Origin: Candidatus Magasanikiibacteriota bacterium
Lineage (GTDB): Bacteria; Patescibacteriota; Patescibacteriia; Magasanikbacterales; GWA2-37-8
NCBI GenBank assembly: GCA_036744835.1
Contig: DAIOHD010000001.1
Location: 736,064-800,063, forward strand
DNA: 64,000 nucleotides
Direction: 5' to 3'
Positions within the stretch are counted from its first letter, which is position 1; every line of letters starts with the position of its first letter. Below the pieces are notes generated by a model. That model was not told the origin of the DNA. It did no database searches and was given only the letters and a program-made list of their open reading frames with translations. This document shows, piece after piece, positions 437-63,661 of this stretch. Both the position numbers and the translations under genes were made by a program.

Positions 437-546
437 GAATGTCATTGCGAGACCCGAAGGGACGCTAAGCGTTCCGAAGGGTCGTGGCAATCCCACTACT
501 TTCTGAACTTCATGAGATTGCTTCGTCATTACATTCCTCGCAATGA
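437..546. repeat. GTCATT-family element copy 1: 11-bp terminal inverted repeat GTCATTGCGAG ... CTCGCAATGAC enclosing ~88 nt with CCGAAGGG direct repeats
   Basis: Perfect IR gtcattgcgag (437-447) / ctcgcaatgac (536-546). Reverse complement aligns with the copy at 2163-2253 (gtcattgcGaggaatgTaatgacgaagcaat...ttcagaaagTagtgggatt). Confidence 0.5.
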
Positions 547-920
547 CAGTAGTGTTCGGTTTATTTTTTTTAAAAAAATAAACCAAAAAGACCCTCCCTT
601 TGGTTGCCTTTATAATAACTTAAAAAACTGTCTTTGGCAACTGGATAAATTTCGTTTAATTTATTTAAAATCCGCCTTTTCCACAAACACTTCAACCTAT
701 AGGTTGAAGTGTTTGTTTTGGCTAAAATAAAGGGATTATTCCCTCCTCTTCCTCAAGAGGAGGGCTAGGGTGGAATTTTTTAAAAAGACTCTCCCCTAAC
801 CTCCGCCTTCATCCAAGCTCCGTTAAAGCTACGCTGGACTACGGACGGACAAGCTCTCTCTTACATAAAAGAGGGGAATAAAAAACCCGCGCAGATATGC
901 ACGGGGTATGAAAGAACTTT

Positions 921-2107: not shown

Positions 2108-2300
2108 AACTCAAAACTCAAATGTCAAATCTCAAAACTACAATTTAAAACCTTAAAACCCTGTCATTGCAAGGAATGAAATGACGAAGCAATACCACAA
2201 AATTCAGAAAGCAGTGGGATTACTTCATCCGCTTTGCGGATTCGTAATGACACTTATCGTTAGTTTTGACATTTAAGGTTGTGGTTTTAACTTTTGAGAT
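2108..2300. repeat. MITE-like element copy A (composite): arms homologous to copies at 7847-7962 and 20487-20584, with a GTCATT-family element (2163-2253) nested in the core
   Basis: Left arm aactcaaaactcaaatgtcaaatctcaaaac matches copy B left arm. Right arm tagttttgacatttaagg..ttttgagatt is its inverted counterpart. Core replaced by gtcattgcaagg...cgtaatgacac. Confidence 0.55.
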
Positions 2301-2304
2301 TAAT

Positions 2305-4767: not shown

Positions 4768-4901
4768 ATTTTATTAAATTTTTAATTTTTAATTTTACAA
4801 TTTTTAATTAATTTTCAATTTCGTAATTTCGCCCGCCTGCCATTCGCCTTATGGCTCTAGGCCTTTGGCGGGCAGGTATTCTTTCATACGTTCGTAAGTA
4901 A

Positions 4902-7100: not shown

Positions 7101-7265
7101 AATAATTTAAGAAATTTAAAAAATTCAAAAGATTTAAGAAATTAAAAAACAATCTTTTAAATCTATTAAATCTTTTTAATCTTTTGAATATTGTTTCTTG
7201 CCTATTTCAGACAATACGGTATAATAAAACAACTTAACAAAAGTTAATTTATTATTTTAACCTAT

Positions 7266-7846: not shown

Positions 7847-7962
7847 AAACTCAAAACTCAAATGTCAAAAGTCAAAACTTTGGTGTCCCTGCGGGACAAT
7901 TTAATTAGACATCGCGAAGCGATACTTTAGTTTTGAGATTTGCATTTTGAGATTTGAGATTT
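7847..7962. repeat. MITE-like element copy B (~116 bp) with imperfect terminal inverted repeats and internal gtccc..gggac hairpin
   Basis: Aligns along its length with 20487-20584: ...aaaagtcaaaactt(t/c)ggtgtccc[hairpin]gcgaagcgatacNNtagttttgagatttgagattt. Confidence 0.6.
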
Positions 7963-7969
7963 AATTTTT

Positions 7970-8866
7970 ATGTATAACGAAATTTCTTCCAACAAACGTA
8001 AATCCGTCTTTTTGATGATGATATTTATCGCATTTATTATTTTAATTGGCTATGTTTTTGATCTTGCTTATGGCAATCAAAACGGAATTTCCGGAATATT
8101 TATTGCAATTGTTTTTTCTTTGGGGATGACGGCTGTTTCTTATTTTTCTGGTGATAAAATTGCGCTCAGTACTACCGGAGCAAAACTCGTGGCTCATGAT
8201 GACAATAAATATTATTATCATTTAGTAGAAAATCTTTGCATTGCCAGTGGTACCCCGATGCCAAAACTTTATATTATAGAAGATCAAGCGATAAACGCTT
8301 TTGCTACTGGTCGCAAACCCGAAACCGCTTCTATCGCTGTGACTCGCGGAGCATTAGAAAAACTCACCAACGAAGAATTGGAAGGCGTGTTGGCTCACGA
8401 ACTGTCTCATATCAAAAATTACGACATTCGTTTTATGATGTTAGTAGCAGTATTAGTCGGCACTATCGCGATTTTTTCAGATATGATGATACGCTCCACT
8501 TTTTTTCGTAGAGGTAATAATGATAGAAATGGCGGGAGCAATCAATTGGCCGCTGTATTTATGCTTGTCGGAATTATTTTGGCCATACTTTCTCCAATAA
8601 TCGCCGAGCTTATCAAACTAGCAATCTCTCGCCAACGCGAATATCTCGCTGACGCTTCCGGCTCACTTCTAACTCGTTATCCTGAAGGATTGGCTTCTGC
8701 TTTAGAAAAAATATCAAGAGAAAATCGCCCCATGCAAAAAGCATCTTCGGCTACTGCCCATCTTTTCATTGCATCACCGTTTAGCGGTAAAAAAATTTCC
8801 TCTATGTTTTCCACTCACCCGCCGGTAGAAGAGAGAGTAAAAAGATTAAGAATGATGGGAAGTTAA
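7970..8866 (+). CDS. htpX: zinc metalloprotease HtpX (M48)
   Basis: HELSHIKNYD zinc motif, four TM segments, C-terminal HPP..ERV motif. Confidence 0.9.
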   Translation: MYNEISSNKRKSVFLMMIFIAFIILIGYVFDLAYGNQNGISGIFIAIVFSLGMTAVSYFSGDKIALSTTGAKLVAHDDNKYYYHLVENLCIASGTPMPKLYIIEDQAINAFATGRKPETASIAVTRGALEKLTNEELEGVLAHELSHIKNYDIRFMMLVAVLVGTIAIFSDMMIRSTFFRRGNNDRNGGSNQLAAVFMLVGIILAILSPIIAELIKLAISRQREYLADASGSLLTRYPEGLASALEKISRENRPMQKASSATAHLFIASPFSGKKISSMFSTHPPVEERVKRLRMMGS

Positions 8867-12652: not shown

Positions 12653-12685
12653 ATACTTAATACTAAATACTTGATACTTAATACT
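12653..12685 (+). promoter_or_regulatory. direct repeat ATACTTAATACT x2 spaced 21 bp, immediately upstream of the clpC start; candidate operator
   Basis: atacttaatact at 12653-12664 and 12674-12685; not a CtsR box. Confidence 0.3.
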
Positions 12686-12690
12686 CATTT

Positions 12691-20458: not shown

Positions 20459-20488
20459 AAAAATCCGCCAAAAGCGGATTTTTTTTAA
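20458..20488. terminator. bidirectional terminator between convergent radA and recG (aaatccgc-caaaa-gcggattt + T8)
   Basis: 8-bp stem, T-run on plus strand, A-run on minus-strand side. Confidence 0.6.
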
Positions 20489-20584
20489 ACTCAAAAGTCA
20501 AAACTTCGGTGTCCCGATTAAATCGGGACGATTTTTATTATAAATATTGCGAAGCGATACAATAGTTTTGAGATTTGAGATTTA
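20487..20584. repeat. MITE-like element copy C
   Basis: aaactcaaaagtcaaaacttcggtgtcccgattaaatcgggacg...gcgaagcgatacaatagttttgagatttgagattta; homologous to 7847-7962. Confidence 0.6.
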
Positions 20585-25289: not shown

Positions 25290-25339
25290 ACTAGACTTCG
25301 GTCTTCAGACTACGGTCGCGCGAAATTAAAAATTAAAAA

Positions 25340-26725
25340 TTGAAAATTGGTCATATGTCTACTCCCGCAAAAATTGTTGAAACAAAATTACCTACCGTAG
25401 CTCTGGTTGGGAGAGTTAATGTTGGCAAATCGACTCTTTTTAACCGCCTTACCGAAAGTGCCCATGCTTTGGTTTCAGACATCCCCGGTACAACTCGCAC
25501 TCGTAATATCGGCCTGGTAACTTGGCGAGGAAAAAATTTTAGACTTATCGATACCGGAGGTTTAACATTTGATGAAAGCGTTCCTTTGGAAAAAGAAATT
25601 ATTGCCCAAACCGAAATAGCTTTAACAGAAGCTGATTTGGTAATTTTTGTTACCGATATTCAAGATGAACTCCTTCCACAAGAAAAAGAATTGGCCAAAT
25701 ATTTACGTCAACAACAAAAAAACAAAAAAGTTTTACTCCTTGCTAACAAAGCCGATACATCTTCTTTGAGAACACGTGTTTATGAAAAAGATTGGCTTAA
25801 ACTCGGACTTGGCGAACCAATTCCGGTATCCGCTAGTAACGGCAGTAATTTGGGTGATTTTTTAGATATTGTTTATAAAAATTTAAATACATCTAAACTT
25901 AGACCAAAAAAAGAAAAGGAGATTATACCTATCAAAGTAGCTCTCATTGGTAAACCCAATGTCGGTAAGTCTTCCCTTTTCAACAAACTAATAGGTGAAG
26001 ACAGAGTTATTGTTTCTCCAATGCCCCACACCACTCGCGAACCACACGACACATTGGTTGAATACGAAAAAACAAATTATTTATTTATTGATACCGCCGG
26101 TATTCGTCGTAAAACAAAGGTTACTGGTCAACTTGAAAAAATAGGTATTGGCAAAAGTTTAAGTACTGTCAACAAAGCTGATATTGTTTTATTTTTACTT
26201 GATGCCAGTCAGCCAATAACCGATCAGGATCAACAACTTGGTGGTTTCTTGAAAGAGCACACCAAAAGCGTGGTAATTGTAGTCAACAAATGGGATACAG
26301 CCGAAGCCAACGACGATGAATTTCGCAATCAAATAAAACAGGATATTTATCATAGTTTTCCACATTTAGACTACGCACCAATAATTTTTGTTTCCGCTTT
26401 AACTGGTTACCGAGCTCACCAAATATTCCCTCTTTTACAAGAAGTTTGGGCTGGAAGACAAATAATGGTGGACGAAAAAACTCTAAGTGTATTTTTGAAA
26501 AAAATAACTCGCAAACATCTACCTTCCAAAGGTAAGGGCGTTCGCCATCCAAAGATATTAAGCCTTAAACAAATCAACGCTAATCCACCAGTTTTTGAAC
26601 TAATGATAAAACAAAAAACTTCTCTACATATTTCTTACGTAAAATTTTTGAAAAACAGATTACGTGAAGAATATGGCTTTTTTGCCACTCCGATTATTAT
26701 CAAGTTGTCTAAATTCAAACAATAA
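25340..26725 (+). CDS. der: ribosome biogenesis GTPase Der (EngA), tandem GTPase domains plus KH-like domain
   Basis: Two G1 motifs GRVNVGKSTLFNRL and GKPNVGKSSLFNKL, DTGG/DTAG, NKAD/NKWD. Confidence 0.9.
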   Translation: MKIGHMSTPAKIVETKLPTVALVGRVNVGKSTLFNRLTESAHALVSDIPGTTRTRNIGLVTWRGKNFRLIDTGGLTFDESVPLEKEIIAQTEIALTEADLVIFVTDIQDELLPQEKELAKYLRQQQKNKKVLLLANKADTSSLRTRVYEKDWLKLGLGEPIPVSASNGSNLGDFLDIVYKNLNTSKLRPKKEKEIIPIKVALIGKPNVGKSSLFNKLIGEDRVIVSPMPHTTREPHDTLVEYEKTNYLFIDTAGIRRKTKVTGQLEKIGIGKSLSTVNKADIVLFLLDASQPITDQDQQLGGFLKEHTKSVVIVVNKWDTAEANDDEFRNQIKQDIYHSFPHLDYAPIIFVSALTGYRAHQIFPLLQEVWAGRQIMVDEKTLSVFLKKITRKHLPSKGKGVRHPKILSLKQINANPPVFELMIKQKTSLHISYVKFLKNRLREEYGFFATPIIIKLSKFKQ

Positions 26726-26762
26726 TTGCGTATATCGTATAAAGTATTTCGTATGTCGTATT

Positions 26763-26790
26763 TAAACCGCCAAAACTATGGTGGTTTTTA
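26763..26790 (+). terminator. terminator-like hairpin after der (aaccgcca-aaactat-ggtggtt with one G-U pair, then T5)
   Basis: Read directly; moderate stem. Confidence 0.35.
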
Positions 26791-26857
26791 TATATAAACT
26801 TGCTAATTTACATCCAGATACGATATACTATATACGCTATACTATATACAAATTTGT

Positions 26858-27385: not shown

Positions 27386-27415
27386 ATTTTCAATTAAAAA
27401 TTAAAAATTGTCACT

Positions 27416-33321: not shown

Positions 33322-34827
33322 ATGCATAGAGGCTGGTTTTTCGAAATTCCAAAAGATTTAGATTCTAATACTTTATTTAAAGTATTAAAAACTTATTGCT
33401 CTGCCAATGATGTGGAAAGGGCTATTTTTGCTTATACTTATGCAGCCGATGCTCATAAAGATAAAAAACGATATTCCGGAGAATCTTATATCACCCATCC
33501 GTTAACTGCCGCCTATTTTTTGGCCAAAATGCACATCGACGTTAATATTGTTATCGCCGCTTTGCTTCACGATGTACCAGAAGATGCCGGGGTACCGATA
33601 GAAGAAATAGAAAAAATCTTCGGCGAAGATATCGCTAACATGGTAAAAGGTATCACCAAGTTAGGAAAACTAAAATATCGCGGTCTTGAAAGATATATAG
33701 AAAACCTGCGTAAAATGTTCTTGGCAATGGCTGAAGATATGCGCGTGATGATCATCAAATTTGCCGACAGGATACACAATCTCAAAACCTTGGAATTTCA
33801 TACTCCAGCCAAACAATATCGTATCGCTAAAGAAAGCTTAGAAATTTATGCACCTATCGCCAATCGTCTCGGGATGGGCGAATTCAAAGGAGCGCTCGAA
33901 GACCTATCTTTTCCCTATGTTTATCCGGAAGATTATGAAAAAGTAAAAACTATTCGTAATAATTTTATTGAAGAATCTGAAGAATATTTGGAAAAAATGA
34001 TGGAAGTCACAAAAAAAGAATTACAAAAAAATGACATTGAGGTTACGGATATTCATGGTCGAAAAAAACAATTGTACAGTTTATATCAAAAATGTTTAGC
34101 TAAAAATTGGATGATTGATAAAATTTATGATATCGTTGCTCTGCGAGTTTTAGTAAAAGATCTAGGAGATTGTTACGCTGCTTTGGGTATTATACATAAA
34201 CTTTGGAGACCACTTAAAGGAAGAATAAAAGATTATATAGCACAACCAAAACCCAATGGCTATCAATCATTACACACAACTGTTTTTTGCGATGATGGTA
34301 AAATAGTAGAATTTCAAATTCGCACTCCAGAAATGCACGATGAAGCCGAGTATGGTATCGCTGCTCATTGGCACTATGATGAAAAAGGTAAATCAAAAAT
34401 ACCCAATCGCGACATACCTTGGGCCAAAGAATTAGCCAAAATTCAGAAAGAGCTTTTAAACAACATGTCTGATCTGGAAAATTTAAAATTGGATTTTTTT
34501 CAAAATAGAATTTTCATTTTTACCCCGGTCGGTGATGTTATTGATTTACCAGAAAATGCAACACCCGTAGATTTTGCCTATCAAATTCATACCGAAGTTG
34601 GTAATAAGTGTACTGGAGCCAAAGTAAACGACCAGATGGTTAGTTTAGATACAGCGCTTAAAAACGGAGACGTGGTGGAAATAATTATTGATAGAACTCG
34701 TAAAACCCCTAATGCCGATTGGTTGGAATTTGTAAAAACAAATAGCGCCAAAGCAAAAATCAAAGAAGCCATCAATAATAATAAAAGTGGGTGGTTGAAA
34801 ATGCTCATCCCGCCATTAAAAAAATAA
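33322..34827 (+). CDS. rel: (p)ppGpp synthetase/hydrolase Rel/SpoT family, short form (HD + synthetase + TGS; no long C-terminal ACT region)
   Basis: HD motif HPLTAAYFLAKMHIDVNIVIAALLHDVPED; synthetase RVLVKD..YIAQPKPNGYQSLHTTV; TGS FTPVGDVIDLPENATPVDFAY; only 501 aa. Confidence 0.85.
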   Translation: MHRGWFFEIPKDLDSNTLFKVLKTYCSANDVERAIFAYTYAADAHKDKKRYSGESYITHPLTAAYFLAKMHIDVNIVIAALLHDVPEDAGVPIEEIEKIFGEDIANMVKGITKLGKLKYRGLERYIENLRKMFLAMAEDMRVMIIKFADRIHNLKTLEFHTPAKQYRIAKESLEIYAPIANRLGMGEFKGALEDLSFPYVYPEDYEKVKTIRNNFIEESEEYLEKMMEVTKKELQKNDIEVTDIHGRKKQLYSLYQKCLAKNWMIDKIYDIVALRVLVKDLGDCYAALGIIHKLWRPLKGRIKDYIAQPKPNGYQSLHTTVFCDDGKIVEFQIRTPEMHDEAEYGIAAHWHYDEKGKSKIPNRDIPWAKELAKIQKELLNNMSDLENLKLDFFQNRIFIFTPVGDVIDLPENATPVDFAYQIHTEVGNKCTGAKVNDQMVSLDTALKNGDVVEIIIDRTRKTPNADWLEFVKTNSAKAKIKEAINNNKSGWLKMLIPPLKK

Positions 34828-34857
34828 TCCCGGTTAAATCGGGATTATTTTTTTATT
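34824..34857 (+). terminator. rho-independent terminator of rel (aatcccg-gttaaat-cgggatt + T-run)
   Basis: 7-bp stem followed by TTTTTTTATT. Confidence 0.6.
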
Positions 34858-34891
34858 AAAAAGATTGCAAAAATTACAAAGATTTAAAAGA

Positions 34892-35809
34892 TTATTCCAA
34901 TCCAGTGATTTTGCGAATAAGTTGAACAAGTTCTTCTTTGGAATAATATGAGATATTGATACTTCCGGACTCCCCGCGAGCGGAAATGGAAACTTTGGTG
35001 CCAAGTGCTTCTCTTAATTTTTCTTCTAAAAACAAAAGATTGGCATCTCGTTTGATAGGAATTTTCTTAATTCTTATTTTTTGAGCCTCACGTTCCAATT
35101 CACGAACGGTTATTTTTTGTCCAAGCATCGATGAAAGCATTTCTAAGCGCTCTTTATCAGATGGTAGTGCTAACAAAGCTCTCGCTTGTCCAGTGTTTAT
35201 TTTACTATCTATCAATGCTTCTTTTACTTTTTCCGGCAAATCCAATAAACGAACGATATTTGCCACAAAAGATCGGCTCTTGCCAACTCTAACGGCTACT
35301 TCTTCTTGGGTTAAATTAAATTCTTCCATTAGTCTTTTGTAAGCAAAGCCTTCTTCAATCGGATTTAAATCAGCACGCTGTACATTTTCTATTAAAGATA
35401 CTTCTAACTTTTCTTGATCTTTAAATTCTTTTACCAAAGCTGGTACAGTAGCCAAACCAGCCAATTTACTGGCTCGCCAACGACGCTCTCCGGCAATAAT
35501 CTCATAATTACCATCTGATTTTTCTGATAAAACAAGAGGTTGTAAAACACCGTGTTTTTTAATACTTTCAGAAAGCTCGTCTAAAAGTTCCGGTTTAAAA
35601 TTTTTACGCGGTTGTTTTGGATTGCTAAAAATTTTACTTACTGGTATAAACCATAGATTATTTTCTAAATTTTTTTCTTCTTTTTTAACAATCGATTTTT
35701 CTGAAACAACCAAATTGCCCGCTTTTGAGACAACAGGTGTCACAATCGGTTCTTTTTTAATATTATTGTTAGACGAAATTAATGCGCCTAAACCTCGGCC
35801 TAGAGACAT
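34892..35809 (-). CDS. parB: chromosome partitioning protein ParB (Spo0J)
   Basis: ParB box PKQPRKNFKPELLDELSESIKKHGVLQPLVL, GERRWRA, HTH region. Confidence 0.9.
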   Translation of the reverse strand: MSLGRGLGALISSNNNIKKEPIVTPVVSKAGNLVVSEKSIVKKEEKNLENNLWFIPVSKIFSNPKQPRKNFKPELLDELSESIKKHGVLQPLVLSEKSDGNYEIIAGERRWRASKLAGLATVPALVKEFKDQEKLEVSLIENVQRADLNPIEEGFAYKRLMEEFNLTQEEVAVRVGKSRSFVANIVRLLDLPEKVKEALIDSKINTGQARALLALPSDKERLEMLSSMLGQKITVRELEREAQKIRIKKIPIKRDANLLFLEEKLREALGTKVSISARGESGSINISYYSKEELVQLIRKITGLE

Positions 35810-41329: not shown

Positions 41330-41450
41330 AAAATCCCAATGTCCAAATCCCAATTTCCAATCAATGCCCAATGCCTAAATGTCCAAATGTAATTGGGGTT
41401 TAGAATTTGGGATTTGATTGGTCATTGGGGTTTGGTCATTAAAAAGTATT
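41330..41450. repeat. CCAAT/CCAAA-rich palindromic spacer between map and ruvX (arms ...aatcccaatgtccaaatcccaatttccaat... / ...attggtcattggggtttggtcatt...)
   Basis: Imperfect long inverted repeat of short degenerate units read directly. Confidence 0.4.
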
Positions 41451-41453
41451 TAA

Positions 41454-60312: not shown

Positions 60313-60319
60313 AAATAAA

Positions 60320-60420
60320 TTTATTTAAGAAATTTAAGAGATTTAAGAAATTTAAGAGATTGAAAGATTTTTATAAAAACAAATAATTTTTTAAATCTTT
60401 TTAATCTTTAAATCTTTTAA
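60320..60420. repeat. AT-only palindromic spacer: tandem aagaaatttaagagattt x2 mirrored by tttaaatctttttaatctttaaatctttt
   Basis: Read directly; related word set (aaagatttaa / ttaaatcttt) also at 7101-7180 and 34860-34892. Confidence 0.4.
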
Positions 60421-60423
60421 ATA

Positions 60424-61960: not shown

Positions 61961-62362
61961 AAAAATAATAAAAAATAAAACAAAGAACGAGTTACATTAC
62001 CTTATTTTGACGTTTTTGTCAATACCCTCATCCCCACCCCGCCCGGACCTTCTTTTTTTATAAAAAACAACTGGTAAGGCGAGCATTTGTAATCGCGAAG
62101 ATAAAATTTATAGACGAGCTGAGCGTTAAAAAATTCCACTTGTTTGAGCCCGAAGGGTGAGTTTGGAATTTTAGTGAAGCGACGTCATAAATTTACGTAG
62201 CGATTATAACAGCGAGCGATTTTCTTTCAGTCCACTTTCTTTTCTAAAAAGAAAGTGGACAAAACTGCGAAGCAAAATAAAAATATTTAGAAAGAAGGAT
62301 GTTGGAATAACAAGGGAGACAAAAACTCTCCCTTAATCCCTCTCTTGAGGAAGAGAGGGAAA

Positions 62363-63661
62363 CTACAGCAAAGGTACCTGTCTGAATTTATTTATCTCTT
62401 TCTCCCCCACCAACCCTATCTTCCCATACACCCCATCATATCCCGGAGACAGATCTACCCTGCCAGTACGCATATTATTGATAGCTAACCACAGCTCCGG
62501 ATATTTTGTATGTTGCAAAATTTCCTTTTCACCAGCTTTTGTCAAAATATAAAATTCCGAACCGATATTTTTGATCAGATGTTCGTATTCGGCTACAACT
62601 TTTTTGGATTTGGGGCCAACTTCCAAAATTTGCGATAAAATTTCCAGGAGCGGGACAATATATTTGTGCGGAATAAATTTTTCCCACGGAATTTCGCTCA
62701 CTTCCCTACTGGCCAAATCATCCACCCTGTGTTCCACCCCTATGACCAGAGGTTTTTTGCATTTCGGGCAAATATTTTTTTCTTTCTTGCTTTGTTTGGG
62801 AGATAAACAAACACCGCAAACCGCATGACCGTCGTATTGGTACATTCCTTCTTCTGGATAAAATTCAATTGTATATAAAAACTTTTTTCTATCTCCAGTA
62901 AAAATTATTTTTTTGATTTCATCATAAGTAATTTTGTTTTCGTCGGCAAAAGAAAAAACATTTGCTTCACGTCCTAGTTTATCCAAACTATGGGCATCAG
63001 AATTTGATACCAAAGTTATTTTATCTAGTTTTTCCAAGCGATGGTTCATGTTTGGGTCACTACTTAACCCTGTTTCTATCGCACAAATTTGGGGAGTGAG
63101 CTCTTCAAAACATTCTTCCAAACTGTCATAACCGGATTTGGAACCGAAAATAGCATACCAAGGAGTCCAGGCGTGCGCCGGAATCATAAAACATCTTTTG
63201 TCGGCTTTCAAAATCAGCTGTAAAAGTTTTTTTGCCGACATGCCGATAATCGGCCGGCCATCGGATCGGCGATTCAAACCCAGTTTATCAAAATCATCAT
63301 TGATTTTTTCCACCGCCTGCAAACTCGGCGCGAAAATGAGCAAGTGTACCCGACGGGTTTTATCTTTGTCTTTATAAATACAAGAAATTTCCGTACCAAG
63401 TATGAAGCGTGTCGGATTTTTCCCCTCCTTTTGTGAAGAGGAGGGCGAGGGTGGAGTCTTTAATTCAAAAAGTCCGCTATTACCAATTTCTTTCAATTCT
63501 TTTTGAATATGTTCAAACCATTTCGGGTGGGTAAAATCACCGGTGGCCACAATATCAATCCCTTTTTTGAGACACATGGCGGCAATTTTTGGCAATTCCA
63601 AATCCGGGCTACAAGCCCGTGAATATTTGGAGTGGATATGTAAATCAAGAATTTTTTCCAT
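62363..63661 (-). CDS. PHP-domain phosphoesterase with internal C4 zinc finger (endonuclease Q-like family)
   Basis: LDLHIHSKYSRACSP PHP N-terminus, ...GDFTHPKW..., later AHAWTPW, NSDAHS, and CGVC...CPKC finger. Contains low-complexity insert TPPSPSSSQKEG (see findings). Confidence 0.6.
   Translation of the reverse strand: MEKILDLHIHSKYSRACSPDLELPKIAAMCLKKGIDIVATGDFTHPKWFEHIQKELKEIGNSGLFELKTPPSPSSSQKEGKNPTRFILGTEISCIYKDKDKTRRVHLLIFAPSLQAVEKINDDFDKLGLNRRSDGRPIIGMSAKKLLQLILKADKRCFMIPAHAWTPWYAIFGSKSGYDSLEECFEELTPQICAIETGLSSDPNMNHRLEKLDKITLVSNSDAHSLDKLGREANVFSFADENKITYDEIKKIIFTGDRKKFLYTIEFYPEEGMYQYDGHAVCGVCLSPKQSKKEKNICPKCKKPLVIGVEHRVDDLASREVSEIPWEKFIPHKYIVPLLEILSQILEVGPKSKKVVAEYEHLIKNIGSEFYILTKAGEKEILQHTKYPELWLAINNMRTGRVDLSPGYDGVYGKIGLVGEKEINKFRQVPLL

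What the first reader, a model, noticed from the sequence alone, without database searches (positions are those of the whole stretch)
7847..7962. MITE-like interspersed element family (three copies) with terminal inverted repeats
Copies at 7847-7962 and 20487-20584 align over their whole length: aaactcaaaa(g)tcaaaactt(t/c)ggtgtccc - a gtccc..gggac hairpin - gcgaagcgatacNNtagttttgagatttgagattt. The ends are imperfect inverted repeats built from (g/c)tcaaaa units. A third copy at 2108-2300 keeps both arms but has a different core. All copies are intergenic and flank gene ends. This looks like a small non-autonomous mobile or REP-type element specific to this lineage.
Basis: seen in the sequence. 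Interest (0 to 1): 0.6.

Follow-up and report, generated by a model that had tools for sequence, protein, structure and literature searches.

The report
Exchangeable intergenic hairpin repeat in Magasanikbacteria
A roughly 100-120 base non-coding hairpin element is scattered between genes in one narrow group of tiny-genome (CPR) bacteria and is gained, lost or swapped for other hairpins at the same gene junctions, so it behaves like a small mobile repeat, though it lacks the standard hallmarks of the known classes.

Summary
Copies at 7847-7962 and 20487-20584 are true paralogues. Each has AT-rich arms built from 7-nt units (STCAAAW, inverted on the other side) around a mixed-composition core. 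The core is CTTYGGTGTCCC, a GC hairpin (P2), a variable AT linker, and a second hairpin ATCGC-GAA-GCGAT (P3). The third copy (2108-2300) shares mainly the left arm, and its core is a different nested repeat. There is no Rfam match.

The host is a Candidatus Magasanikbacteria genome. Further copies lie at other stop-start gene junctions in relatives, but none in viral contigs. Only 1-2 copies are seen per stretch of genome examined.

Occupancy at orthologous sites does not follow phylogeny. The LemA-HtpX junction carries this element in two lineages, where it is 98% identical against 53-78% at fourfold sites of four nearby genes. Other relatives carry two unrelated tandem-unit hairpins there, and one has nothing.

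No target-site duplication, partner transposase or high copy number was found. My best reading is a new family of non-autonomous, hairpin-forming interspersed elements, MITE-like in a broad sense and not REP-like. It belongs to a wider class of tandem-unit hairpins in these genomes. Interest is moderate.

The parts
7847..7879 (+). c1 left arm: AAACTCAAAACTCAAATGTCAAAAGTCAAAACT, four to five 7-nt units (STCAAAW)
   Evidence: (D3)
7880..7884 (+). c1 junction TTGGT, part of the conserved AACTTYGGTGTCC block
7885..7897 (+). c1 hairpin P2: GTCCC-TGC-GGGAC. A T-rich run follows on this strand, so it is terminator-like.
   Evidence: compensatory variants in other copies
7898..7910 (+). c1 AT-rich linker, variable in length and sequence among copies
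7911..7925 (+). c1 hairpin P3: ATCGC-GAA-GCGAT followed by AC. It contains the GCGAAGC mini-hairpin word. In the 8 aligned copies the only variation is one C-to-T change in c2.
   Evidence: PMC13037366
7928..7962 (+). c1 right arm: TAGTTTTGAGATTTGCATTTTGAGATTTGAGATTT, inverted 7-nt units. It ends 7 nt before the HtpX ATG at 7970.
   Evidence: (I4, I18)
20487..20505 (+). c2 left arm: AAACTCAAAAGTCAAAACT (two to three units)
20511..20529 (+). c2 hairpin P2: GTCCCGAT-TAA-ATCGGGAC, followed by GATTTTTATTAT
20546..20560 (+). c2 hairpin P3: ATTGC-GAA-GCGAT followed by AC (one T.G wobble)
20563..20583 (+). c2 right arm: TAGTTTTGAGATTTGAGATTT
2108..2140 (+). c3 left arm, 94% identical to c1's left arm over 32 nt
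   Evidence: (D3)
2162..2252 (+). c3 core: two GC-rich 'gtcattgc..cgaagcaat' modules of a different repeat family (inverted copy at 489-562). It replaces the P2/P3 core.
   Evidence: (I1)
2260..2301 (+). c3 right arm, degenerate: TTAGTTTTGACATTTAAGGTTGTGGTTTTAACTTTTGAGATT

Best explanation
c1 and c2 are copies of a 100-120 bp non-coding interspersed element, here called type A, of a narrow, roughly genus-level clade of Candidatus Magasanikbacteria (Patescibacteria/CPR).

SHOWN. The single strand folds into a long AT-rich imperfect stem made of 7-nt tandem units. The stem closes a three-way junction with two small GC hairpins. P2 is GTCCC(GA)..(TC)GGGAC, with a free loop and compensatory changes. 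P3 is the near-invariant ATCGC-GAA-GCGAT. Copies sit at unrelated stop-start gene junctions in several genomes. They fill the spacer to within about 0-30 nt of both neighbouring genes. Orthologous junctions in close relatives are empty or hold unrelated hairpins.

INFERRED. The element spreads, or is exchanged, as a DNA unit independently of its flanks. It is non-autonomous and acted on by an unidentified enzyme or by short-patch recombination in naturally competent populations. It persists mainly where it does not disrupt genes.

Once in place it is co-transcribed with the operon around it. It adds a long hairpin to the RNA and, in one orientation only, two terminator-like hairpins. That could explain why 5 of 6 copies between co-directional genes, counting c3, are antisense to those genes. 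Its likely effect on the host is incidental: transcript processing, stability or insulation. This is the same kind of effect documented for Correia, ERIC, BOX and RUP elements.
For: Family and structure:
- Two window copies plus 6 more in relatives score 83-111 bits with one covariance model, with nothing else below E = 1 in about 283 kb.
- Fold z-scores are -5.3 to -6.3.
- Compensatory changes keep P2 paired: GTCCC/GGGAC becomes GTCCT/AGGAC in L003, and the stem extensions GAT/ATC, GAC/GTC and GATG/CATC all pair. In L006 the arms change from TCAAAA/TTTTGA to GTAAAA/TTTTAC and still pair.

Dispersal:
- Distinct sites are LemA-HtpX, radA/recG, PBP-MurF, a FemAB-like gene next to a MurC-like gene, map-ruvX, trx-MBL, and upstream of the M50 protease gene.

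Polymorphism:
- The LemA-HtpX junction holds type A in the window and L008. It holds a CTCTAAG-armed hairpin in L011-13, L016 and L023, a GTAAGC-armed hairpin in L020, and only 2 nt in L014.
- The radA-recG site holds A only in the window.
- The pheT site is empty in L014.

Uncoupling from flanks:
- L008, L016 and L020 share 97.5-100% identical LemA 5' parts yet carry three different hairpins.
- HtpX 5' ends group the window with L016, and L008 with L020, while type A groups the window with L008.

Recent common ancestry of the copy:
- The window and L008 copies differ at 2 of 116 positions, including the otherwise free linker. Fourfold-site identity is 77.5% in LemA and 53-63% in M50, pheS and PGM. 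Mismatch density jumps at the HtpX start codon.

Other:
- Short-read contigs of SRR6007447 end inside the left arms of c1 and c3, as expected for a repeat.
- P2 and P3 are flagged terminator-like on the element's + strand only.
Against: - No target-site duplication or conserved flanking target could be defined.
- No transposase lies in the window and no autonomous element with the same arms was found.
- Copy number appears low: one right-half-pattern hit per genome in the species-genome scan, and only 4 metagenome contigs.
- The termini vary more than the core, unlike a transposase-recognised TIR. However, my search patterns required the core, so core conservation outside the window is partly by construction.
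- Arm mismatches are regular transversions (46 of 51, A.A and G.G every 7 nt). This suggests each arm is constrained in its own right and not merely kept complementary.
- 98% identity across lineages could also reflect strong selection.
- The orientation bias (5 of 6) is not statistically significant.
Confidence: 0.55

Rival explanations
1. A host-selected cis-acting RNA module. In this reading the element is kept because its hairpins act in the transcript as a terminator or insulator between neighbouring genes, or as a processing or stability signal. It is not a selfish mobile element.
For: - P2 and P3 followed by T-rich runs are picked up as terminator-like.
- P2 resembles this genome's own terminators, for example ATCCCGGTTAAATCGGGAT followed by a T-run after relA/spoT at 34827-34850 (weak model hit).
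- Compensatory changes occur in P2 and the arms.
- The element is the best-conserved 116-nt window of a 4-kb syntenic alignment.
Against: - Copies occur in both orientations relative to transcription, and most are antisense, where the terminator-like features are lost.
- Very close relatives lack it or carry unrelated hairpins at the same junction.
- The flanking genes have no common theme.
- There is no Rfam family.
- The linker, which is free among paralogues, is nearly identical between the two lineages. That points to recent shared origin, not constraint.
Confidence: 0.2
2. A two-layer composite. The AT-rich tandem-unit arms would be locally evolving palindromic arrays common to these genomes. 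Only the GC-hairpin core (P2-linker-P3, about 75-85 nt including the innermost AAAACT/AGTTTT pairs) would be the dispersing unit, landing in the loops of such hairpins.
For: - L006 has the same core inside different arms built from GGTAAAA units.
- c3 has the same left arm around a different GC module.
- L016 carries a 31-33-nt GC module, CCGTCCGAAGCTTTAGCGAAGGCGG, inside a type-B hairpin that lacks it in L011 and L023.
- L016 has a WTCAAAA-armed hairpin with a purely AT core between pheS and pheT.
- Intergenic DNA in general shows 7-8-nt periodicity even without c1-c3.
Against: Seven of eight core copies carry the same STCAAAW arms at unrelated sites in several genomes, so arms and core usually travel together. 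The L006 and L016 cases are single examples.
Confidence: 0.15
3. An array of protein-binding sites. The 5-bp block TCAAA/TTTGA, repeated every 7 bp in inverted arrays, would be bound by a regulator or nucleoid protein, so the arms would be operators and not a folded structure.
For: - Arm mismatches are regular. The 5-bp block is conserved and the 2 spacer positions are conserved transversions in nearly all copies.
- A direct heptamer array ATACTNA x5 sits just upstream of clpB and is conserved in a relative.
Against: - Orthologous sites hold arrays with entirely different units, or none.
- Flanking genes are unrelated.
- c2 lies between two gene ends, with no promoter to control.
- A 7-bp spacing puts successive sites on different faces of the helix (inference).
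Confidence: 0.05
4. Chance resemblance of low-complexity AT-rich intergenic DNA.
For: The window is 29-40% G+C, and AT-rich heptamer words are common in its spacers.
Against: - Exact 12-14-nt GC-containing blocks are shared only by the two copies.
- Model scores are 87-99 bits.
- The same composite sequence occurs in other genomes.
Confidence: 0.01

Closest known systems
Correia / CREE (nemis) elements of Neisseria, a bacterial MITE
   Same: Both are about 100-150 bp, non-coding and intergenic, often just upstream of genes, and flanked by inverted repeats that fold into a long hairpin in transcripts. Both show presence/absence polymorphism between strains. Correia elements have documented side-effects on expression: promoters, terminators and RNase III cleavage at the inverted repeats (PMC10969869).
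   Different: Correia elements have well-conserved 26-bp TIRs, a TA target duplication and an IHF site, and number in the hundreds (my knowledge plus PMC10969869). Here the arms are variable tandem 7-nt units with periodic mismatches. No duplication is seen, copy number looks low, and the conserved part is an internal pair of GC hairpins.
REP / BIME / REPIN elements mobilised by RAYT (Y1 transposase)
   Same: Both are extragenic hairpin-forming repeats at gene ends. Both have inverted doublets forming a longer hairpin and no target duplication. A Y1_Tnp gene exists near the syntenic region in one relative (L011-13).
   Different: REPs are 20-40-nt imperfect palindromes with a conserved 5' tetranucleotide, present in tens to hundreds of copies and tied to a single RAYT gene (my knowledge). 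Here the arm units are not palindromic, no such motif exists, no RAYT is in the window, and copies are few.
BOX, RUP and SPRITE repeats of Streptococcus pneumoniae
   Same: All are modular small repeats with a variable number of internal or tandem modules and ends that pair into a stable stem-loop. Elements insert into one another, and one class is terminator-like (PMC3049150; PMC10969869).
   Different: There is no sequence relationship. BOX modules are about 45-60 nt, not 7 nt. The pneumococcal families are high-copy. The host phylum is different.
IS200/IS605-derived palindrome-associated elements (PATEs)
   Same: Both have internal or subterminal hairpins as the most conserved feature, not the termini, and no target duplication. 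Strand-specific single-strand DNA hairpins are plausible here: GCGAAGC forms an exceptionally stable DNA mini-hairpin on one strand only (PMC13037366). All three window copies are on the same strand.
   Different: In IS200/IS605 the left-end and right-end hairpins resemble each other and there are no long inverted arms (my knowledge). Here P2 and P3 are unrelated to each other and the element has long arms. No TnpA link has been shown.

Membership tests
MITE (miniature inverted-repeat transposable element) | Small (under about 500 bp), non-coding, with inverted repeats at the ends | tested here: met
   The element is 98-125 bp with no conserved ORF. The arms are 20-35 nt and pair at about 75-80% with regular mismatches.
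MITE (miniature inverted-repeat transposable element) | Target-site duplication flanking each copy | tested here: inconclusive
   No shared direct repeat flanks the 8 copies. The only empty allele (L014, TAA-tt-ATG) comes from a species too diverged to define exact junctions.
MITE (miniature inverted-repeat transposable element) | Multiple dispersed copies and insertion polymorphism | tested here: met
   There are at least 7 distinct sites with the full core, plus a third window site (c3) that shares only the arms. Occupancy is polymorphic at all three window sites. Density is low, however.
MITE (miniature inverted-repeat transposable element) | Ends shared with an autonomous IS that supplies the transposase | not testable with these tools
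   No transposase lies in the window and no longer element with these arms occurs in about 283 kb examined.
REP / REPIN with RAYT | Short palindromic unit with a conserved 5' tetranucleotide, tens to hundreds of copies, and a cognate RAYT gene | tested here: not met
   Arm units are tandem heptamers, not palindromes. There was one pattern hit per genome in the species-genome scan. No Y1 transposase is in the window. A Y1_Tnp gene in L011-13 sits in a lineage that has no type-A copy in the DNA examined.
Any described RNA family (Rfam 15) | Match to a curated covariance model | tested here: not met
   The only matches at gathering score are three tRNAs. At E up to 5 over bases 1-22000 there are only sub-threshold terminator-type hits overlapping c2.
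Intrinsic (Rho-independent) terminator | GC-rich stem-loop directly followed by a U-run, oriented with the upstream gene | tested here: inconclusive
   P2 and P3 pass a simple terminator scan on the element's + strand. Their T-runs are interrupted by A, and most copies are antisense to the flanking genes.

The most novel reading that the evidence does not exclude
These Magasanikbacteria may carry a previously undescribed system of exchangeable intergenic hairpin cassettes. Many families would share one architecture: arms made of inverted arrays of 7-9-nt tandem units with regular mismatches, and optional small GC mini-hairpin modules such as GCGAAGC or CCGAAGG in the loop. The cassettes would occupy the exact stop-start junctions of housekeeping operons and be replaced independently of the flanking genes, even among genomes whose neighbouring genes are 95-100% identical. 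The finding's element would then be one family in this system. Its movement would use a single-strand DNA, hairpin-dependent mechanism not covered by the MITE or REP models.
Probability: 0.25. Interest if true: 0.7.

Novelty: new variant of a known kind. Interest (0 to 1): 0.42.

Why it matters
CPR/Patescibacteria genomes are among the smallest and most compact known, and their repeat content is barely described. Three full-text searches for MITE, REP or inverted-repeat elements in this group found nothing on the subject.

This is a dispersed hairpin family that turns over at fixed gene junctions faster than the flanking genes diverge. It gives a marker for strain-level recombination in uncultivated populations. 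It also warns that operon spacers here are not neutral or stable. If the wider cassette pattern is real, it offers a tractable case for asking how small hairpin DNA moves without a recognisable transposase.

If the element is simply another MITE-like family, the value is mainly descriptive.

Tried and rejected
- **Rfam.** Gathering and permissive thresholds gave no family.
- **Viral contigs.** Three patterns gave nothing, or only chance hits inside GC-rich coding DNA.
- **Small peptide.** c1 has a 22-codon frame, but it is not conserved in c2 (read). Rejected.
- **Outward promoter from the arms.** The RC of the left arm contains TTGACA and TTGACT words, but only weak 9/12 matches were found and no consistent -10 before the downstream starts. 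Not supported.
- **Replacement of a missing Shine-Dalgarno site.** Most genes in the window lack an SD anyway. Rejected.
- **CtsR-like operator.** CtsR uses GTCAAA heptads, but with 10-bp spacing, and it belongs to Firmicutes (my knowledge). The spacing here is 7 bp and sites turn over. Rejected.
- **Target-site duplication.** Comparison of filled and empty alleles was inconclusive.
- **G.U versus A.C asymmetry in the arms, to pick the transcribed strand.** Mismatches are almost all transversions, so the test is uninformative.
- **Walking out of the window.** Four look-ups failed because my ORF starts, or the stored protein, were not on record.
- **Mini-hairpin word counts.** SCGAAGS is not enriched overall (22 against 15.5 +/- 4). 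There is only a weak strand bias.

Full report
**What is there**

Reading the three loci and aligning them confirms two full paralogues, c1 at 7847-7962 and c2 at 20487-20583. Each has five parts in order:
- a left arm of 7-nt units (CTCAAAA, CTCAAAT, GTCAAAA; four to five units in c1, two to three in c2);
- the block AACTTYGGTGTCCC, which runs into a GC hairpin P2 (GTCCC-TGC-GGGAC in c1, GTCCCGAT-TAA-ATCGGGAC in c2);
- an AT-rich linker that differs in length and sequence;
- a second hairpin P3, ATCGC-GAA-GCGAT, followed by AC;
- two free bases and a right arm, TAGTTTTGAG ATTTGAG ATTT, which is the imperfect inverse of the left arm.

The GC-containing blocks GCGAAGCGATAC and AACTTYGGTGTCCC occur exactly only at these two places in the window. 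The arm word is about 14-fold over-represented, with 10 matches against 0.71 expected. Each copy folds far better than shuffled controls on either strand, as RNA or DNA (z -5.4 to -6.3).

The third locus (2108-2300) is a relative and not a third full copy. Its left arm is 94% identical to c1's (D3), but its right arm is degenerate. Its interior consists of two GC-rich 'gtcattgc...cgaagcaat' modules that belong to another repeat family, with an inverted copy at 489-562 (I1).

**Host and context**

Names attached to close homologues of the window's phosphoglucomutase place the window in Candidatus Magasanikbacteria (Patescibacteria/CPR). The identical protein is on record from a 906-kb contig.

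The window is housekeeping DNA: pheST, rseP-like M50, lemA, htpX, clpB, radA, recG, topA, parAB, the ribosomal protein operons and fusA. It contains no transposase.
- c1 lies between the LemA stop and the HtpX start, ending 7 nt before the ATG.
- c2 follows the radA terminator and abuts the recG stop.
- c3 lies between the pheT stop and the next gene's start.

No Rfam family matches.

**Other copies**

An exact right-half pattern found two of 185,579 species genomes, with one hit each. L002 is the orthologous LemA-HtpX spacer of a related MAG. L003 is a PBP-MurF spacer in a MAG mislabelled Gammaproteobacteria, whose MurF is 84% identical to a protein of the source genome.

A gapped core pattern found four metagenome contigs. 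Their sites are a FemAB-like gene next to a MurC-like gene, map-ruvX, trx-MBL, and the spacer upstream of the M50 protease gene. Viral contigs gave nothing real.

A covariance model of the core plus inner arms scores all eight copies at 83-111 bits. It finds no further copy in about 283 kb of window plus relatives' DNA. The family is therefore real and dispersed, confined to a narrow clade, and sparse.

One caveat applies. Both collection patterns demanded the core, so the apparent invariance of GGTGTCC and GCGAAGCGATAC outside the window is partly by construction.

**Structure**

The parts not fixed by the search do carry information.
- P2 keeps pairing through a double change, GTCCC/GGGAC to GTCCT/AGGAC in L003. 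Its stem extensions GAT/ATC, GAC/GTC and GATG/CATC also pair.
- In L006 the arms have switched from TCAAAA/TTTTGA to GTAAAA/TTTTAC and still pair.
- The formal count gives 96.5% of cells paired, against 27-44% when partners are slid. Three pairs have changes on both sides, reached by 2 of 500 shuffles. With eight related sequences this is suggestive, not proof.

The arms are not drifting towards perfect complementarity. Of 51 arm mismatches, 46 are transversions, placed regularly. Five paired positions (TCAAA/TTTGA) are followed by two mismatched ones (A.A, G.G) in every 7-nt unit.

On the element's + strand, both P2 and P3 are followed by T-rich runs and pass a simple terminator scan. On the other strand they do not. 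P3 contains GCGAAGC, which as single-stranded DNA forms an exceptionally stable mini-hairpin (PMC13037366). This is a lead only.

**Turnover at orthologous sites**

This is the most informative result. I fetched syntenic loci from relatives through their PGM proteins and through a shared 128-aa protein.

| Junction | State | Genomes |
|---|---|---|
| LemA-HtpX | type A | window, L008 (= L002) |
| LemA-HtpX | hairpin with CTCTAAG / TTTAGGA arms and an AT-rich core | L011-13, L016, L023 |
| LemA-HtpX | hairpin with 8-nt GTAAGC units | L020 |
| LemA-HtpX | two bases only (TAA tt ATG) | L014 |
| radA-recG | type A | window only |
| radA-recG | AGTCTWC-armed hairpin | L020, L022 |
| radA-recG | a 127-132-aa ORF | L008, L011, L014, L024 |
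| pheT downstream | empty | L014 |
| pheT downstream | another hairpin | L016 |

The states do not follow phylogeny. L008, L016 and L020 are sisters, with the LemA 5' 400 nt 97.5-100% identical, yet they carry three different hairpins. The first 300 nt of HtpX groups the window with L016 (91-95%) and L008 with L020 (93-99%), while type A groups the window with L008.

The two type-A copies at this junction differ at 2 of 116 positions. That makes the element the best-conserved 116-nt window of a 4-kb alignment that is 83% identical overall. Fourfold-degenerate sites are 77.5% identical in LemA and 53-63% in M50, pheS and PGM. Mismatches resume densely from the second codon of HtpX.

The linker is free to vary among paralogues, yet it is almost identical between these two lineages. 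I therefore read the near-identity as recent common origin of this copy, by transfer or replacement after the lineages split. Selection on every base seems less likely.

**Interpretation**

The simplest account is a non-autonomous, hairpin-forming interspersed DNA element that moves or is exchanged independently of its flanks and survives only in the few non-disruptive positions of a compact genome. Those positions are the stop-start junctions, where copies reach to within about 0-30 nt of both genes.

However, the strict hallmarks of a MITE are not demonstrated: target duplication, conserved termini matching an IS, and high copy number. The REP model fails its defining features.

Orientation gives a hint of how the host experiences the element. 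Five of six copies between co-directional genes, counting c3, are antisense to those genes. That is the orientation in which the terminator-like hairpins are inactive. This is what purifying selection against polar insertions would produce, but the numbers are too small to be significant.

Effects on transcripts are inferred from the documented behaviour of Correia, ERIC, BOX and RUP elements (PMC10969869; PMC3049150). They might include a long stem as a processing or stability signal, or insulation against antisense transcription.

**Rivals**

- **Host-selected RNA or terminator module.** This would explain the conservation and covariation. It would not explain the two orientations, the absence or replacement in close relatives, or the unrelated gene contexts.
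- **Two-layer model.** Here only the GC core is the travelling unit and it lands in pre-existing tandem-unit hairpins. Three things support it: L006 (same core, other arms), c3 (same arm, other core), and a 31-33-nt GC module present in L016's type-B hairpin but absent from L011 and L023. Against it, seven of eight cores carry the same arms at unrelated sites.
- **Operator-array model.** This fits the regular 5+2 pattern of the arms, but not the turnover.
- **Chance similarity.** Excluded.

**Wider pattern seen on the way**

Type A is one case of a general habit of these genomes.
- Many spacers hold hairpins whose arms are inverted arrays of 7-9-nt tandem units, each family with its own unit. 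Examples are ATTTAAGAA 9-mers at 7105-7195, 34855-34902 and in the rpsG-fusA spacer at 60314-60421, CGTATNT units at 26726-26857, and others at 41361-41453.
- Intergenic DNA shows an autocorrelation peak at lag 7-8 even after removing c1-c3.
- The spacer upstream of the M50 gene holds a hairpin in every genome examined, each with different units. In L007 it holds a type-A copy.

This is the basis for the more novel reading, which I hold at about one in four.

**Limits**

- The source genome outside the window could not be read.
- No expression data are available.

Noticed in passing
window 7105-7195, 34855-34902, 60314-60421: A second hairpin family has arms that are inverted arrays of 9-nt units (ATTTAAGAA / TTTTAAATC). 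One copy fills the rpsG-fusA spacer of the str operon. Another sits between the M50 start codon and the LemA promoter.
   Followed up: partly
M50-LemA divergent spacer: window 7101-7265; L008 16145-16218; L011 14444-14516; L014 14438-14464; L016 2431-2504; L020 16190-16263; L007 1468-1590: Every genome examined has a tandem-unit repeat array at this orthologous spot, though an inverted partner arm was not confirmed in L014. The units differ: 9-mers in the window, ATATTGA heptamers in L008, L011, L016 and L020, TCTAAAA in L014, and a type-A copy in L007.
   Followed up: partly
window 26726-26857 and 41361-41453: Two further heptamer-armed hairpins. One has CGTATNT units around a GC terminator-like hairpin, between der (engA) and pth. 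The other has CAATGCC/CAAATGT-type units and lies inside the ribosomal protein gene cluster.
   Followed up: no
window intergenic regions 1-47000: Intergenic DNA shows a base autocorrelation peak at lag 7-8 (0.335 and 0.315 against about 0.285 at neighbouring lags). The peak persists without c1-c3. Coding DNA shows only the 3-nt period.
   Followed up: partly
window 12656-12690; L020 9349-9377: A direct (not inverted) array of five ATACTNA heptamers sits immediately upstream of the clpB start codon, with the unit conserved in a relative. It is a possible operator of a heat-shock regulator.
   Followed up: no
window 437-562 and 2162-2252: GC-rich 'gtcattgcgag ... ccgaagg ... cgaagcaat' modules form another interspersed family. 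In c3 they are nested inside the heptamer arms. CCGAAGG and GCGAAGC are DNA mini-hairpin words.
   Followed up: partly
window 733-780, 62321-62362 (inverted), 63414-63461: A third small repeat family, TTCCCTCCTCTTCCTCAAGAGGAGGGCTAGGGTGGA-like, is itself a GC-rich palindrome (74-77% identity between copies).
   Followed up: no
L016 1580-1783 compared with L011 13683-13806 and L023 7107-7230: The CTCTAAG-armed hairpin is 89-91% identical among three lineages. L016 carries an extra 31-33-nt GC module (CCGTCCGAAGCTTTAGCGAAGGCGG) in its core, an apparent insertion of a small GC hairpin into an AT-rich hairpin loop.
   Followed up: partly
LemA / HtpX in window, L008, L016, L020: The genes around the junction are mosaic. 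The LemA 5' 400 nt is 97.5-100% identical among L008, L016 and L020, but its last third is 87-92%. HtpX 5' ends fall into two allele groups that cut across the LemA grouping. Recombination breakpoints therefore cluster at the hairpin.
   Followed up: partly
radA-recG spacer: L008 1082-1480, L011 1088-1471, L014 1140-1538, L024 1196-1594: Four relatives have a 127-132-aa ORF of unknown function between recG and radA. It is missing in the window, L020 and L022, where a hairpin element sits instead.
   Followed up: no
L011/L012/L013 from 21328; L008 18587-18958: One relative has a Y1_Tnp (IS200/IS605-type or RAYT-type) gene just beyond the region syntenic to the window's left end. In the window only small repeats lie there. 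Another relative has a 23S_rRNA_IVP gene between pheS and pheT that the window lacks.
   Followed up: no
whole window: GCGAAGC occurs 5 times on the + strand and never on the - strand. CCGAAGG occurs 6 times on + and 2 on -. Many of these are in intergenic repeats. The + strand has negative GC skew throughout the window.
   Followed up: partly
whole window, gene starts: Only about 10 of 59 predicted starts have a Shine-Dalgarno-like word upstream. Several starts are preceded by short direct ATTAAAA repeats (for example 4772-4799, 25321-25350, 27393-27406).
   Followed up: partly
L003 (CAYRYH010000001.1): This MAG is titled 'uncultured Gammaproteobacteria bacterium', but its MurF is 84-85% identical to Magasanikbacteria proteins, including one from the window's 906-kb source contig. 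The label is probably wrong.
   Followed up: yes
L001 1-30 and L017 1-35 (Logan contigs of SRR6007447): Two short-read contigs of the same organism end inside the left arms of c1 and c3. That is the kind of assembly break a repeat produces, and it hints at more copies sharing these arms in that sample.
   Followed up: no
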